Source of the DNA: Narcine bancroftii
Taxonomy: Eukaryota
Reading direction: 5' to 3'
Length of the DNA stretch: 64,000 nt
Assembly: GCF_036971445.1 (NCBI RefSeq)
Contig: NC_091469.1
Coordinates: forward strand, 268,584,001 to 268,648,000
Positions 2,069 to 8,611 of this stretch are shown in pieces. The notes under the pieces were generated by a model. That model ran no database searches, was not told the origin of the DNA, and worked only from the letters and a program-made list of their open reading frames with translations. The position numbers were made by a program, and so were the translations under genes. Numbering within the stretch: the first letter of the stretch is position 1; each line of letters opens with the position of its first letter.

Positions 2069-2371
2069 CAATCCCAAAATATGATGAAATAAAACTGCAG
2101 CCAGAAAACCCAATAGTGGAAGAATTTGCTTATTCATCATGCAGAATATATTCCTTCTTTCCAAAAGAAATTAAAGTTACTTGGAAAATGGATGGCAGAA
2201 TATTGGATGGTGATGGTGAAGCTGTCTTGGGAAAGGATGGTTGTTATAGCTTAACAAGTCTTTTGAGATTTGTCCCTGAAAGAATTTATTTTGGCAAGAT
2301 ATTAAGATGTGAATTCCAGCATGAAAGTATCACAGAAATTCAAAACGCTGAATGTAAATTGGATCATTTGA
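2069..2371 (+). CDS. Gene 1 (B7-H6-like paralogue, 5' part outside window): IgC1 exon A, equivalent to gene 2 exon 7
   Basis: ttag acceptor and A|gtaagt donor, phase 1. Motifs SCRIYSFFPKEIKVTW...GCYSLTSLL...LRCEFQH. Confidence 0.88.
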
Positions 2372-3765
2372 GTAAGTAAATGTTTTATTGGTCAACAATT
2401 GTTTTATTTTGCAAGATCCCAATACCCTTTCTAGAACATTATGGACTCTCGCAAGGAATTTTGATAATTTAATTGGTGTTGGAGATGTGGATAATCTGCG
2501 AACAAAATAGAGAAAGGAAAAATCAGCTTGTTGATTTTTATAAGACATTATTTGAGTTTGGATAGTTTATGTTTGGCTCCAGTTAACATGAATAAAACAT
2601 TGTCTTTTCACGTGAAATTATTTATAGTACAGCTTGTTTTTTTTAGTGCTCTGATACATTCGAAGCTCTGGATTTACTGGTGCCAAAATGGATGAAGAAA
2701 AAAAAAATTTCTTTGGTTTTATCAGACAAAAAAATATGTTTGGACCATTTGAGTCAAACATAACTGGGAATGTGGGTCTGCCAAGAGAGTACAAAAAGTT
2801 AGATTTAAGTTAAAATACATCAGCCTTAAATTCTGGATTGTTACTTAAGATGAGTTAAATTGACACCGATACAAGAAATAGCAAATTAAATGAATGGTTC
2901 AAAATATTTTGTGTGTCAGGGCCATTAGCTTGTTTGCATTCATGGCATTATTGTTTGGGATTGTTCTGGTAAGACTTGGCAGTGTACAGGTGAATGAAAT
3001 TTCCTGGTTTTTACAATCACTGGATGATGAGCTGTGAAAGCATATATTCAGAAACAGGAGAAGCCCAAGTTTGTACAGCTGAGTCAAAGTAAGCAGGAAG
3101 GATGAGAAAGGGACAAGGAGATTGTCAAAGGTTAGTGAACTTTTTTATGGATCAGAGCGGGATGGGGTGGGGGAGGGGGGAAGCTAAATATTGAAAGTAG
3201 GACATTGATCAGGACAAACTATGAGAAGAGAAATGAGGTAGATTGACAAACTACACTGGTACTTTGCTTAGGGCTCAAGGTGCATGGGCAAAACTGAGAC
3301 TACTAATAGAATTAGCCTTCTGCTAATGCTGCTGCAGCAATGAATTGGTTACAGTGGCTCACAGTGTCACATGGCTCAGGGTCGAGTGAGCCATCAAGGC
3401 AATGTGGAGAGGCTGCTTCCAAAAGCCGATGCTGGTTGGGCTAGGACGAATTATGTGGCTGTCCAGCACTGAATTTATGGGGCACAAGGATGCATGGTGA
3501 GTGGGAGACATTGTTGGCAAGAAGTAGCAGTAGTTCCATGTGTTAAAAGTCAGGATCCTACAACTTCTGTTGGGTGTGATAAAGGCTGATGTCTCCTCGC
3601 CTGTTTGTTTGACTGCATAACTCCTTTCAGCCCAAATATTTTTTTCAATGATTGAAGTTTGATTCTAATCCATGCAGTAATCTTGATAGCTCAAATCTGA
3701 GATAATTGTGACTGTTAAATTGTTACATTTTATCATCCAAAGTGTGTATATGTTTTTTTTTACAG

Positions 3766-4089
3766 TGTCTTCACCATTAATTGACAACCTAAAATTTGAA
3801 CCACAATTCCCAAATCCAGGAGAGGAAACAACATTCCTATGCCGTGCACATGGATTTTTTCCAAAGGAAATCCAGTTCATGTGGTTTAAAAATGATAAGA
3901 GGATTGATGATAGGGAAATCACTACCACCATCCCGGAGATAGATAAAACTACTGGTCTCTTCAACAGCGAAAGTTTGTGGAAATATGTAATTTTACAAGA
4001 AGATCATCAAATTGAAATCAAAGTGGAGGCTCTTCATATTCAGACTTTGCACAAACTTACAAAGAGCTTTCAAATCTTGCACCTTGGTG
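3766..4089 (+). CDS. Gene 1 IgC1 exon B, equivalent to gene 2 exon 8
   Basis: tacag acceptor and G|gtatga donor, phase 1. Motifs FLCRAHGFFPKEIQFMWFK...IEIKVEALH, with the second Cys replaced by V. Confidence 0.88.
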
Positions 4090-4458
4090 GTATGAATTAT
4101 TTATGTACTGAATTGCATTTATACTATTCTAGCAATCTTTATATTTCCAAAGATATATGAACATTTTCAAAGATTTAATGCCACAAAGATGTTAGAGGAA
4201 AATTTGTGTTTTTTTTTTAAAGGGAGCTGATATATACATGGAATGCAAACTTTATGGTAATATTCTGTACTTATCAGTCAAATTTTGAAGAAGAAATTTG
4301 TTTAAGGCTATTTTGAAGTTGCAATACTTGATTTTAATCAGAAATGCAATTTGCTTCAAAGTTTGCCAGAAAATGTATGTAATTATTACAACAAAATGAG
4401 AAATGCCCAGGTCTTTCTGACTGTCATCGAGCAGTTGCATTTAAAAACATGCTATATC

Positions 4459-5100
4459 ACTAACAGCATTTTTTTTTTTCAAAAAGATTTGCTTCCTGAA
4501 AAGTAATTGGGAATTATGATAGAAAACTTAACGGTGAACACAAAGATAGTCACATTTTCTGTATCACACATGAAGTTGGAGAAACATTAAATCAACTTTA
4601 ATTGAATTTAGCATGTTTAATCACATAATGATGCAGATACATTGCATTAGTTCAACTGACCTATAAATGTCTTCCCTCTGATTTTCGTTTGTACTCAGCA
4701 CCTGATGCCTTTCGTGTCAGTGCCCATCACTAACAGGCCACCAGTGATGGTTTCCCTGATACCACTTCTCCATGGTCACAACGTCCTGGTGAAACCTTTC
4801 ACCATGTTTGTCACTGACTGCACCAAGATCAGCAGGGAGGAAGTCCAAGTGAGAAGATGAATTTTTCAATCTTTTCATTGACATTTCATGATGTACACAG
4901 CATAAGGAGAATACAAATAACACAATTAAAATGGTATGCCCAGAAAATGAGTTTTCAATGAAATGTTGCGCTTCATGGTTGTGTATACTTGAAGTGGACT
5001 TAAAGTAGAGCAGGTTACATCTTAAAAAAAGGAACACGATAGGAAAAATTTAAGGTGATTTTTGTGATCAGCCGTCCAAAATCCATTGCCCAGAATTGTG
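4459..5100 (-). mobile_element. DNA transposon remnant, probably Chapaev3/CMC type
   Basis: Minus-strand peptide HLDFLPADLGAVSDKHGERFHQDVVTMEKWYQG resembles the SDEHGERFHQD transposase motif as I recall it. Element appears to run CAC...GTG. Family assignment is from memory. Confidence 0.55.
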
Positions 5101-6123: not shown

Positions 6124-6759
6124 GTATGTTAAACTCGTGCAAAACCCTGATAACCAAGATTTTTTTAATGAGAACTGAATTTATCATAGTCATAAACCAA
6201 GTGCAGTTTTCCTCGAATTAAGTATTTTGTACAAGAATGTTGTTTTCCAGTATGGCCCCAAATAAATGAACAAGCATAATTTTCCTCAAATCTTAATACT
6301 TTCATTCATTTAAGAAGTCTTGAGTCGAAGAACATCCATTTTTCAAGTTTATACAAAAGGATTATTTTTTTAATGCCTAAAATTGTGAACCCGTGAAATA
6401 ATGTGTGATATTGTACCAAACAAGATTGTGCAGTATTGCCAGTTTGGAACAGAATGCTAACTTTATCAACTTTAGGACTTTTGTTGTTTTTAACACCTAC
6501 TTTATTCACCAATGGACTGGGATTGGAAATATGCTATCTTGTCAGATCTATCTTGTTTGTGACTCCAGATTGCTGCTCTCTGGGGGGGAAAAAAATTCTC
6601 AGCTCGATGAAGTTTAGGCTTAATGAGGTGGTATTCTGTTTGTGGATTGAAATTTGTTCAATCACTGCACCTTAACTGCTCCCTCAGTAGGTTTATGATA
6701 ACAGTTGAGTCTTGTTTTAAAGATGTGATGTTTAGAGCCAAAAAGACACTTGGTGCATT

Positions 6760-7850
6760 TCAAGTTCATACTTATTGTTGGAGTACATGCATGACATCAC
6801 ATGCAACCCTGAGATTCCTTTTCCTATGGGCCAGGCAGTTATCGATAATGTAAACTGTACTCAAGAAAGGAAGGCGTACACAAAAGAGAGAAATGTAAAC
6901 AAAGAATGGTAAACAAACTGTAATTACAGAAAAAAATTCAGTAATGTGCAAAGTAAGTGTCCTTAAATGAGTCTGTGATTTAGGAATCTGATGATGGATG
7001 GGTAGCATCTGTTCCTGAACCTGGTGGGACAAGTCTTATAGCACCTATACCACTTTCCTGATGGCAGCAGTGAGAACAGTGTGTGCTGGATGGTGTGGAT
7101 CCTTGATGATTGCTGCTGCTGTCCGACGACAAGTGTTCCATATATATGGTGGGGAGAGATTTGCCTGTTTTATACTGGGCTATGTTCACTACCTTTTGCA
7201 AGGCATTTCACTCAGAAGCATCGGTGTCCCTGTGATGCACCCAGTCAGCACACTTTCCAGCACACAGCTGAAGAAGTTTGCCAAAATTTCCAATGTCGTA
7301 CCAAACCTCCGCAGACTCCTGAGGAAGTAGATGTGCTGATGTATTTCCTTCATGATGACATTTGTGTGTTGGTTCCAGGAGATACTGACTCCCAGGAATT
7401 TCAATTTGCTTGCCCTCTCTTCTGTTGATTTGCACAATGATCACTGGATCGTGCACCTCTAGTTTTTCCTTCCTGAGGTTTACATTCAGCTCCTTGGTTT
7501 GGGTGATATTGAGTGAGAGGTTGTTATTAGTTCAGTATTGCCCCTCCTGTTTGCTGCCTCATCGCCCATTTTTATACAGCCACGGCTGTGGTATTGTCAG
7601 CAAATTTTCTAAATGGTGTTGTCATAGTGAGCCATGCAGTCATAGGTGTAAAGTGAGTAGAGCAGGGGAGCTCTGGTGCTGAATGATAATGTGGAGGAGA
7701 TGTTCTTGCCAATTTTCATTGATTGGGGTGAGGAAATCCAGGATCCAATTACACAGTTTAGGCATTGAGGCCCAGGTCTTGGAGATTTCTAATCAGTTTT
7801 GAGGGGATGATGGTGTTGAAGCTGAACTGTAGTCAATAAAGAGCATCGTA
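6760..7850 (-). mobile_element. Rex1/Babar-like LINE 3' fragment
   Basis: Peptide KFLGVSIS-WNQHT...HQHIYFLRSLRRFG...FFSCVLESVLTGCIT in ORF 7189-7437(-), with frameshifts. Boundaries approximate. Confidence 0.75.
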
Positions 7851-8297
7851 ACATATACATGGAGATATCATATAAAATAATTTTGGTGGTGTTATTAGGT
7901 ATCTTAAGGACTAATGAGAAACACAATCAACCTATTTCCTGATGTTAACCAGTTCCAACTGCTCAGTAATTCAATATTATTTTTATTTCTATTCTAATAT
8001 TTTTTTTATTAGACTCCATAAATTTTCAATATTCAATTTTGTTGCTCGCTGTGGATATATTTAGCCACATGGAGATTTATTTTAGCCTTCTTTTGGTCGT
8101 GTTATTTCAATGTTTATCTGATTTTTCTCTTATTTCATAGTTTCTTCCAACTGTTTCTCGTGATCTTGCCTGCTGACCAAGTTTAGTATTTGACCTTTCT
8201 AAATGAAAGATATTTAAGATAACTGATTTACCAGAATTTTGAGAAAAGCTATCGGCCATAGAAAATTAAACTGATTCATATTCTATTTCATTTTAAG

Positions 8298-8611
8298 GTC
8301 ATTTCCCAACTGTGTCTGAAATCAAATGCCACCCCACACCTCTAGAGGAAAACAAAATGGCAACTTTCACAGTTTCGTTGGCTCAATATATTCCTCAAGA
8401 AATTGAAGTGAGGTGGTTCAAAGGAGAACAACCCTTCATGGGACGTGTGGATAACAGTCAACCTCAAATTGATGCATATAGTCTTTACTCTTCAACAACA
8501 AGAATAGAATTTGCTCCAGGACCATTTGATCACAACTTGGAAATAAGATGTGAGATAATTCACTTTGAGTCAAAGAAAACAATAGAAAAAAAGTGCCATT
8601 TAACATTTTGA
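8298..8611 (+). CDS. Gene 1 terminal IgC1 exon D with stop codon, equivalent to gene 2 exon 10
   Basis: taag acceptor, phase 1. Sequence FPTVSEIKCHP...FTVSLAQYIPQEIEVRWFK...IRCEIIH...IEKKCHLTF*. Confidence 0.88.

What the first reader, a model, noticed from the sequence alone, without database searches (positions are those of the whole stretch)
2069..8611. Upstream tandem paralogue with the same last four Ig domains in the same order
Seen: exons A-D pair with gene 2 exons 7-10 by position-specific signatures. A/7 share SFFPKEIKVTW/SFYPKSITVQW and end LDHL/LENL. B/8 share IKVEALH..KSFQ/YKVEVCH..QSFQ. C/9 share MEPENPFYG..RLPL/MEPKVPLYG..QLPL. D/10 share VSEIK..CEIIH..IEKK/VSEIK..CEIEH..VEKK and both end at a stop. 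The proteins are otherwise strongly diverged and no intron similarity is evident. Inference: an old duplication with both copies maintained, i.e. a gene family in which each tail domain has a fixed identity rather than a recent exon amplification.
Basis: partly seen in the sequence, partly recalled or inferred. Interest (0 to 1): 0.7.

Follow-up and report, generated by a model that had tools for sequence, protein, structure and literature searches.

The report
Three ancient B7-H6 genes, cytosolic tails
This stretch is the spliced end of the middle one of three side-by-side ray genes related to the human killer-cell ligand B7-H6; the copies, inferred to be over 400 million years old, keep the same six antibody-like domains in the same order behind the membrane anchor, where these domains likely sit inside the cell and likely govern sorting or docking of the protein.

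Summary
Exons A-D are real, spliced, and pair by position with the last four exons of gene 2. The eight domains alone give weak support; adding other species makes it firm (7 of 7 positions form one clade each). Gene 1 continues upstream as leader-V-C1-TM plus two more tail exons (973 aa, intact), and a third paralogue lies further upstream. All three are B7-H6 (NCR3LG1) relatives: best PDB match, fold (Z 23.4), and position next to KCNJ11-ABCC8. The gene-2 lineage split from genes 0/1 before sharks and bony fish parted; genes 0 and 1 split before chimaeras diverged. The odd feature is six C1-type Ig domains behind the single membrane span, predicted cytosolic, where human B7-H6 has a Gag-like tail. 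The paralogues differ in motifs: gene 0 keeps the NKp30-contact T-P-x-K and mostly an acidic dileucine sorting motif, gene 1 keeps only the dileucine, gene 2 neither. The duplication is ordinary. The tail is unusual but widespread, noted in 14 earlier scan findings, and possibly in comparative papers I could not read.

The parts
2069..2371 (+). Gene 1 exon A = tail domain t3 (C1-type Ig, both canonical Cys kept). Upstream of the window, in G000:C1: leader 268550346-268550421, V 268563597-268563959, C1 268564796-268565116, TM 268568503-268568619, t1 268574767-268575183, t2 268580334-268580711
   Evidence: spliced to B in 4 of 4 runs, loose end matching the end of t2 listed for 3 of 4
3766..4089 (+). 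Gene 1 exon B = t4 (F-strand Cys absent, as in 53 of 53 relatives)
5815..6123 (+). Gene 1 exon C = t5 (F-strand Cys absent)
8298..8611 (+). Gene 1 exon D = t6 with stop codon (B-strand Cys absent); contigs run on into a 3' UTR to at least 9650
33685..33751 (+). Gene 2 leader exon in a CpG-rich stretch
   Evidence: matches N-terminus of P0001
37007..37360 (+). Gene 2 V domain (B7-H6-like)
38255..38581 (+). Gene 2 extracellular C1 domain
43069..43185 (+). Gene 2 transmembrane exon
43503..43901 (+). Gene 2 t1 (no acidic dileucine motif)
47605..47967 (+). Gene 2 t2
50903..51214 (+).
55447..55773 (+). Gene 2 t4 (exon 8; partner of B)
57266..57577 (+). Gene 2 t5 (exon 9; partner of C); the database model P0001 lacks most of it
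59989..60299 (+). Gene 2 t6 with stop (exon 10; partner of D)

Best explanation
Exons A-D are the last four exons of an intact, spliced B7-H6 (NCR3LG1)-family gene, the middle one of three tandem paralogues inferred to have arisen by whole-gene duplications in early jawed vertebrates; each encodes leader-V-C1-TM followed by six (gene 0: seven) C1-type Ig domains that are predicted to lie in the cytosol. Shown: gene structure, splicing of A-D, domain pairing by position, B7-H6 kinship, position next to KCNJ11-ABCC8. Inferred: (1) type I topology, so the tail is cytosolic (about 0.85); (2) the V domain is shown on the cell surface as a ligand for an NKp30/CD28-family receptor, gene 0 being the likely NKp30 ligand, while genes 1 and 2, which lack the T-P-x-K contact motif, likely bind other or divergent receptors (about 0.55); (3) the tail likely works as an ordered docking chain that sets how much ligand stays at the surface: an acidic dileucine motif in the disordered loop of t1 would recruit clathrin adaptor (AP) complexes in genes 0 and 1, and the position-specific conservation of t2-t6 would reflect distinct partners or fixed domain-domain packing (about 0.45). 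The three copies would thus persist because they divided receptor specificity and trafficking between them.
For: Open frames of 1044 (leader not included), 973 and 962 aa with canonical phase-1 sites; database models P0028, P0192, P0001 match. Only these three genes in 424 kb. Human B7-H6 is the top PDB sequence hit for gene 0 (E 3e-30) and gene 1 (1e-27) and the top ectodomain hit for gene 2 (5e-19); the AlphaFold model of the sawfish gene-1 orthologue matches B7-H6 at Z 23.4, rmsd 1.6 A over 211 residues, next family 18.8. A Kir6.2 ORF lies 14 kb after gene 2 (585 bits vs 542 for Kir6.1), then SUR-type exons. A frog and a snake homologue with the same kind of tail are named NCR3LG1 by their source. 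Topology: one hydrophobic segment between C1 and t1, with higher net positive charge after than before it in 52 of 53 proteins, and no second segment in the tail (max KD19 1.74); hydrophobic leader in 40 of 46 models that have one. Canonical Cys pair: V 52/52, C1 52/52, but t1 13/52, t4 0/53, t5 6/47, t6 17/45. N-glycosylation sequons observed/expected 1.40 in the ectodomain, 1.02 in the tail. All six tail domains are modelled as beta-sandwiches with high confidence, apart from the t1 loop, residues 348-369. [DE]xxxL[LI] in that loop: gene 1 10/11, gene 0 6/10, bony 3/14, gene 2 0/18, against 0.2-0.6 expected per group. T-P-x-K: gene 0 8/10, bony 10/14, gene 1 0/11, gene 2 0/17; Thr127, Pro128 and Lys130 are the main NKp30 contacts (PMC3135353, Table II passage). 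Tail domains are about as conserved as the ectodomain between ray and chimaera (gene 1: 40-50% vs 42-48%).
Against: Topology, ligand and partners are untested by experiment. t2 and t3 keep both Cys in 51/53 and 50/53, as extracellular domains would. In the gene-1 group alone the sequon ratio does not differ (1.07 vs 1.07). The TM-to-t1 joint of gene 1 was not seen in laid reads; it rests on contig lengths (914 and 941 nt upstream of exon A against 912 for TM+t1+t2) and on database models. The database model of gene 1 (P0192) lacks the leader I assign. Shuffles for the dileucine and sequon counts ignore kinship, and the dileucine lead came from an earlier scan note. SUR1 beats SUR2 by only 5 bits on the one exon tested; the NUCB2 call and the human gene order are recalled. 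27 of 150 search hits show no TM by my threshold, so TM-less forms may exist. The RNA runs are one study and 'RNA' is the tool's guess.
Confidence: 0.72

Rival explanations
1. The tail is extracellular or luminal: the main product skips the TM exon, or the hydrophobic segment works as an internal signal, giving a secreted or inverted multi-Ig protein.
For: t2 and t3 keep the canonical Cys pair in 51/53 and 50/53; C1-set domains are normally extracellular (established knowledge); some database models lack a TM (27 of 150 hits, many of them fragments or distant proteins).
Against: TM present between C1 and t1 in 53 of 53 aligned proteins, positive-inside in 52 of 53, leader present, four of six tail positions mostly without the Cys pair, sequons at chance level; contig lengths fit TM-t1-t2-A-D; cytosolic-type sorting motif in a disordered loop.
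Confidence: 0.12
2. The cytosolic Ig chain is a sensor: it binds an intracellular pathogen or stress molecule and signals inside-out to the ectodomain, as the B30.2 domain does for butyrophilins.
For: Same V-C-TM-folded-cytosolic-domain plan as butyrophilins (ectodomain fold match Z 16.7); each position conserved for over 400 million years; human B7-H6 is induced on tumour and infected cells (PMC6514059 passages).
Against: No ligand, pocket or partner identified; no hypervariability shown; tail length varies widely among relatives.
Confidence: 0.2
3. Gene 1 is a recent copy or a decaying remnant, and the pairing comes from generic C1 similarity or exon amplification.
For: Eight domains alone do not reject grouping by gene (p-AU 0.158); one within-gene pair in gene 2 reaches 41% identity, above the cross-gene pairs.
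Against: Intact 973-aa frame, spliced, orthologues from rays to chimaera; 7 of 7 positions monophyletic across species; no intron similarity.
Confidence: 0.02

Closest known systems
Human B7-H6 (NCR3LG1), ligand of NKp30
   Same: Leader-V-C1-TM plan, ectodomain sequence and fold, neighbourhood with KCNJ11/ABCC8; gene 0 keeps T-P-x-K.
   Different: Human protein is 454 aa with a Gag-homologous tail bearing ITIM, SH2- and SH3-binding motifs (PMC2715080 passage); here three paralogues with six or seven C1-type domains after the TM, and genes 1 and 2 lack T-P-x-K.
Butyrophilins (BTN3A1/BTN2A1)
   Same: B7-type V-C ectodomain (Z 16.7) plus a folded cytosolic module.
   Different: Cytosolic module is B30.2 there (recalled), an Ig chain here; ectodomain much closer to B7-H6.
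Shark UrIg2 (VJ plus nine C1 domains plus TM)
   Same: Elasmobranch multi-C1 membrane protein.
   Different: Its C1 domains precede the TM, and six of them are near-identical recent duplicates (PMC12227049 passages); here they follow the TM and are old and position-specific.
SIRP alpha/gamma and tapasin family
   Same: V plus C1-set domains; three tail domains align to SIRP ectodomains (Z 16.4, rmsd 7.1); B7-H6 clusters with TAPBP/TAPBPL in PMC13262535 (passage).
   Different: All their Ig domains are extracellular or luminal; weaker match than B7-H6.

Membership tests
B7-H6 / NCR3LG1 | Ectodomain of one V and one C1 domain closest to B7-H6 | tested here: met
   the gene-1 V exon alone gives B7-H6 the best single-domain E-value (3e-9), although four-domain B7-H3 ranks first on summed score
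B7-H6 / NCR3LG1 | Type I membrane protein with leader and single TM, phase-1 domain exons | tested here: met
   (sequence prediction only)
B7-H6 / NCR3LG1 | Locus next to KCNJ11-ABCC8 and NUCB2 (human 11p15.1) | tested here: met
   Kir6.2 and SUR exons downstream, RPS13-family exon 390 kb upstream; NUCB2-like exons by recalled motifs; human order recalled, 11p15.1 from PMC2715080, neighbourhood from one table row in PMC7071772
B7-H6 / NCR3LG1 | NKp30-contact residues Thr127-Pro128-x-Lys130 | tested here: inconclusive
   Met in gene 0 (8/10), not in gene 1 (0/11) or gene 2 (0/17); shark receptor residues unknown, so loss does not show loss of binding
B7-H6 / NCR3LG1 | Binds and activates NKp30 | not testable with these tools
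   No NKp30 sequence of this species was in hand; needs a binding assay
B7-H6 / NCR3LG1 (human form) | Gag-homologous cytoplasmic tail | tested here: not met
   Tail exons are all C1-set Ig; this feature is of the human form and is not taken as defining the family
B7-H6 / NCR3LG1 | Groups with mammalian B7-H6 in a tree against other B7 members | not tested
   No mammalian sequence was held as a session protein
Ig C1-set domain (tail) | C1-set profile and beta-sandwich fold | tested here: met
   A-D over the Pfam cut-off; model
Ig C1-set domain (tail) | Canonical B-F Cys pair | tested here: inconclusive
   Kept in t2, t3; absent in t1, t4, t5, t6 of gene 1 (0/11 each)
UrIg / antigen-receptor-like VJ-C1 | C1 domains before the TM | tested here: not met
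   Six of seven C1 domains follow the TM

The most novel reading that the evidence does not exclude
The ancestor of jawed vertebrates already had two B7-H6 lineages whose six-domain cytosolic Ig chain is an ordered intracellular sensor or scaffold that gates display of the ligand from inside. Sharks and rays keep three specialised versions, two of them serving receptors other than canonical NKp30. The human lineage replaced the chain with a retroviral Gag-like tail. Cytosolic C1 arrays would then be an overlooked class of immune signalling module, also found on V-C-C-TM proteins (19 of 150 hits).
Probability: 0.25. Interest if true: 0.8.

Novelty: new variant of a known kind. Interest (0 to 1): 0.48.

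Why it matters
C1-set domains are the building blocks of antibodies, T-cell receptors and MHC and are treated as extracellular. A conserved chain of them inside the cell, on the ligand of NKp30, would be a new way to regulate a killer-cell ligand and would show what the human Gag-like tail replaced. The three paralogues form a natural experiment: they differ at the receptor-contact loop and at a sorting motif, so which one binds shark NKp30 and what the tail does can be tested directly. The tandem duplication as such is ordinary.

Tried and rejected
Complex prediction for two copies of gene-1 domains A-D: no verdict (score 0.00, alignment not used), no evidence either way. No listed run is on record as RNA. 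Protein Atlas gave no answer for the NUCB2-like exon. The eight-domain tree alone was uninformative. Tyrosine motifs in the tails are patchy (ITIM-like 22/53, ITSM-like 10/53, ITAM-like 1/53, no control run) and probably lie in folded strands, so not used. A hydrophobic candidate exon at 41041 was rejected as TM: it is not in P0001 or its orthologues. The idea that hits with a TM near residue 330 are MHC class I was rejected: none of the six such proteins scanned has an MHC_I domain. Whole-chain Foldseek ranks long multi-Ig chains first with rmsd over 25 A, which is uninformative. Nine literature searches (listings only) showed no paper on post-TM Ig domains in B7-H6. The comparative papers most likely to mention them were not held (Flajnik 2012; Ohta and Flajnik 2015; Ohta 2019; two further DOIs given from recall), so absence from print is not shown. 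The one supplement file of PMC3964593 had no B7H6 term. Place and sequence look-ups of earlier findings were empty.
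Full report
Observation. Each scores as Pfam C1-set above the cut-off, and all 18 quoted signatures are present. Contigs from 4 of 4 public runs of one study (RNA by the tool's guess) join A-B, B-C and C-D at GT..AG and show almost no depth in the unique parts of the introns; the loose end before A matches the end of the next upstream exon in the 3 runs for which it is listed.

Extent. The window is G000:C1:268584001-268648000. With 200 kb upstream and 160 kb downstream, tblastn and family HMMs find exactly three genes on the + strand. 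Gene 0 spans about -96 to -61 kb, gene 1 -33.7 kb to 8611, gene 2 33685-60299. Each is leader-V-C1-TM followed by six C1-type exons (t1-t6; gene 0 has a seventh). My spliced models are open over 1044 (without leader), 973 and 962 aa. Database models from a contig of the same length, labelled Narcine bancroftii by the source, match them: P0028, P0192 (identical to my gene 1 minus the first 32 residues) and P0001 (lacks most of t5). A-D are t3-t6 of gene 1.

Is the pairing more than chance? Between genes 1 and 2 every domain's best partner is the one at the same position, in both directions, for 7 of 7 (C1, t1-t6); this assignment is the best of 5040. For A-D alone it is the best of 24, two margins are thin, and an eight-domain tree neither resolves the pairs nor rejects grouping by gene (p-AU 0.158). 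With ten proteins from ray, shark, chimaera, caecilian, coelacanth and reedfish (70 domains, re-aligned), each of the seven positions forms one side of a branch (SH-aLRT 84-99), 6 changes against 48 in shuffles. Introns show no collinear similarity.

Age. A full-length tree of 32 of my 53 aligned proteins (21 near-redundant rows left out for run time; six shorter gene-1 orthologues, P0033 and P0197-P0201, were never aligned) gives three chondrichthyan clades at SH-aLRT 100, each with a chimaera member. The gene-2 clade also holds lungfish, coelacanth and caecilian proteins, while other bony-vertebrate proteins fall with genes 0 and 1. In the domain tree, where other domains give the root, t1, t2, t4, t5 and t6 split gene 2 from the rest. 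So gene 2 parted from genes 0/1 before the shark-bony fish split and genes 0 and 1 before the chimaera split (about 450 and 400 million years; dates recalled). Consecutive gene numbers suggest the tandem is kept elsewhere (Callorhinchus LOC103174893/4/5, Hypanus LOC132397239/240, Mustelus LOC144498907/8, Protopterus LOC122810504/5, Microcaecilia LOC115468917/8); this is indirect, not coordinates.

Identity. The ectodomains match human B7-H6: E 3e-30 for gene 0 and 1e-27 for gene 1, top hits; 5e-19 for gene 2. An AlphaFold model of the sawfish gene-1 orthologue (mean pLDDT 85) aligns to B7-H6 at Z 23.4, rmsd 1.6 A over 211 residues, ahead of B7-H3 (18.8) and butyrophilins (16.7). A single-exon Kir channel lies 14 kb past gene 2 on the minus strand, closest to Kir6.2/KCNJ11, followed by SUR-type exons (SUR1 145 bits, SUR2 140). 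An RPS13-family exon lies 390 kb upstream and nucleobindin-like exons 182-186 kb upstream (recalled motifs). Human B7-H6 maps to 11p15.1 (PMC2715080, passages); the order NUCB2-NCR3LG1-KCNJ11-ABCC8 is recalled, and one table row in PMC7071772 lists three of these genes together on chromosome 11. A frog protein (1065 aa) and a snake protein (868 aa) with such tails are named NCR3LG1 by their source.

The tail. All 53 aligned proteins have one hydrophobic segment between C1 and t1; net charge is more positive after than before it in 52 of 53; no second segment occurs in the tail; 40 of 46 models with an N-terminal extension have a hydrophobic leader. This predicts a cytosolic tail. The canonical Cys pair is invariant in V and C1 (52/52 each) but found in only 13/52 t1, 0/53 t4, 6/47 t5 and 17/45 t6; against this, t2 and t3 keep it (51/53, 50/53). 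Sequons are enriched in ectodomains (1.40 times shuffles) and not in tails (1.02), though not in the gene-1 group (1.07 and 1.07); rows are related, so these are not independent counts. The TM-t1 joint of gene 1 was not seen directly. The contigs extend 914 and 941 nt upstream of A, while TM+t1+t2 is 912, which fits a break at the C1/TM boundary (inference). Three unnamed Logan-derived proteins on 3.5-7.5 kb contigs carry V-C1-TM-tail in one frame. Among 150 search hits, 117 have Ig domains after their last TM, 63 of them with a strong B7-H6-type V and C1. Tail domains are about as conserved as the ectodomain between ray and chimaera. Human B7-H6 instead has a Gag-homologous tail (PMC2715080).

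Why three copies. Two motifs sort by paralogue. Thr127, Pro128 and Lys130 give the hydrogen bonds and salt bridge to NKp30 (PMC3135353, passages and Table II). T-P-x-K is present in 8/10 gene-0 (T-P-x-R in the other two) and 10/14 bony proteins, and in 0/11 gene-1 and 0/17 gene-2 proteins; this ray's gene 1 has lost all three residues. An acidic dileucine motif, the known signal for clathrin adaptor complexes (established knowledge), lies in the low-confidence loop of t1 in 10/11 gene-1, 6/10 gene-0, 3/14 bony and 0/18 gene-2 proteins, with 0.2-0.6 expected per group; in other hits it occurs in 20 of 46 against 3.9 expected, some of these being isoforms of aligned rows. This lead came from an earlier scan note and was tested here. 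The simplest reading is division of labour: gene 0 the NKp30 ligand, genes 1 and 2 ligands for other or divergent receptors, genes 0 and 1 under endocytic control. These steps are inferred.

Literature and novelty. I saw passages of PMC12227049, PMC10751288, PMC11599192, PMC6514059, PMC7071772, PMC2715080, PMC3135353 and PMC13262535, one supplement search of PMC3964593, and listings of nine searches. None described post-TM Ig domains in B7-H6. The key comparative papers were not held; I recall that Flajnik 2012 reports B7H6 in sharks and an expanded cluster in Xenopus, and it may describe the tail. Fourteen earlier findings of this scan, in at least 10 genomes, hold all the search words, and the eight shown report the same tail; they are AI notes and not support. 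What this window adds is the dated three-gene array and the motif split between paralogues.

Verdict. Observation confirmed, interpretation supported. The duplication is ordinary and ancient; the predicted cytosolic C1 chain is the part worth testing. New variant of a known kind; interest 0.48.

Noticed in passing
window 369-475 (-): U6 snRNA copy (Rfam 100 bits) with an A-rich tail and a perfect 17-nt direct repeat on both sides (347-363, 476-492): a retrotransposed U6 copy in the intron before exon A.
   Followed up: yes
P0116 (horn shark, by source label): B7-H6-type V-C1-TM followed by seven t1 repeats; the six complete units are 97-100% identical: recent exon amplification in a relative, or an assembly artefact.
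   Followed up: partly
P0030, P0047, P0106 and similar hits: Proteins with three Ig domains before the TM (V-C-C, SIRP-like plan) and up to 14 C1-like domains after it; those named are from frogs and coelacanth; 19 of 150 hits. Suggests post-TM C1 arrays on a second family.
   Followed up: partly
P0033 and P0197-P0201: Gene-1 orthologue models of several sharks are 742-837 aa; P0033 ends after t4. Possible loss of t5-t6 or short isoforms.
   Followed up: partly
G000:C1:268658390-268659529 (-) and about 268756000-268778000 (-): KCNJ11 (Kir6.2) ORF of 379 aa and ABCC8-type exons downstream of gene 2.
   Followed up: yes
G000:C53:23244-23447: Single C1 exon on a 95-kb contig hit by exon A (30%); looks tapasin-like by recall, not part of this family.
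   Followed up: partly
window 10797-11825, 22520-25695, 41580-41990, 26800-30360: LINE-type reverse-transcriptase fragments and a broken LTR-retrotransposon-like pol region between and within the genes (likeness recalled).
   Followed up: no
window 43069-43074 and G000:C1:268568503-268568514: The TM exons of genes 1 and 2 both have in-frame alternative AG acceptors a few bases apart.
   Followed up: no
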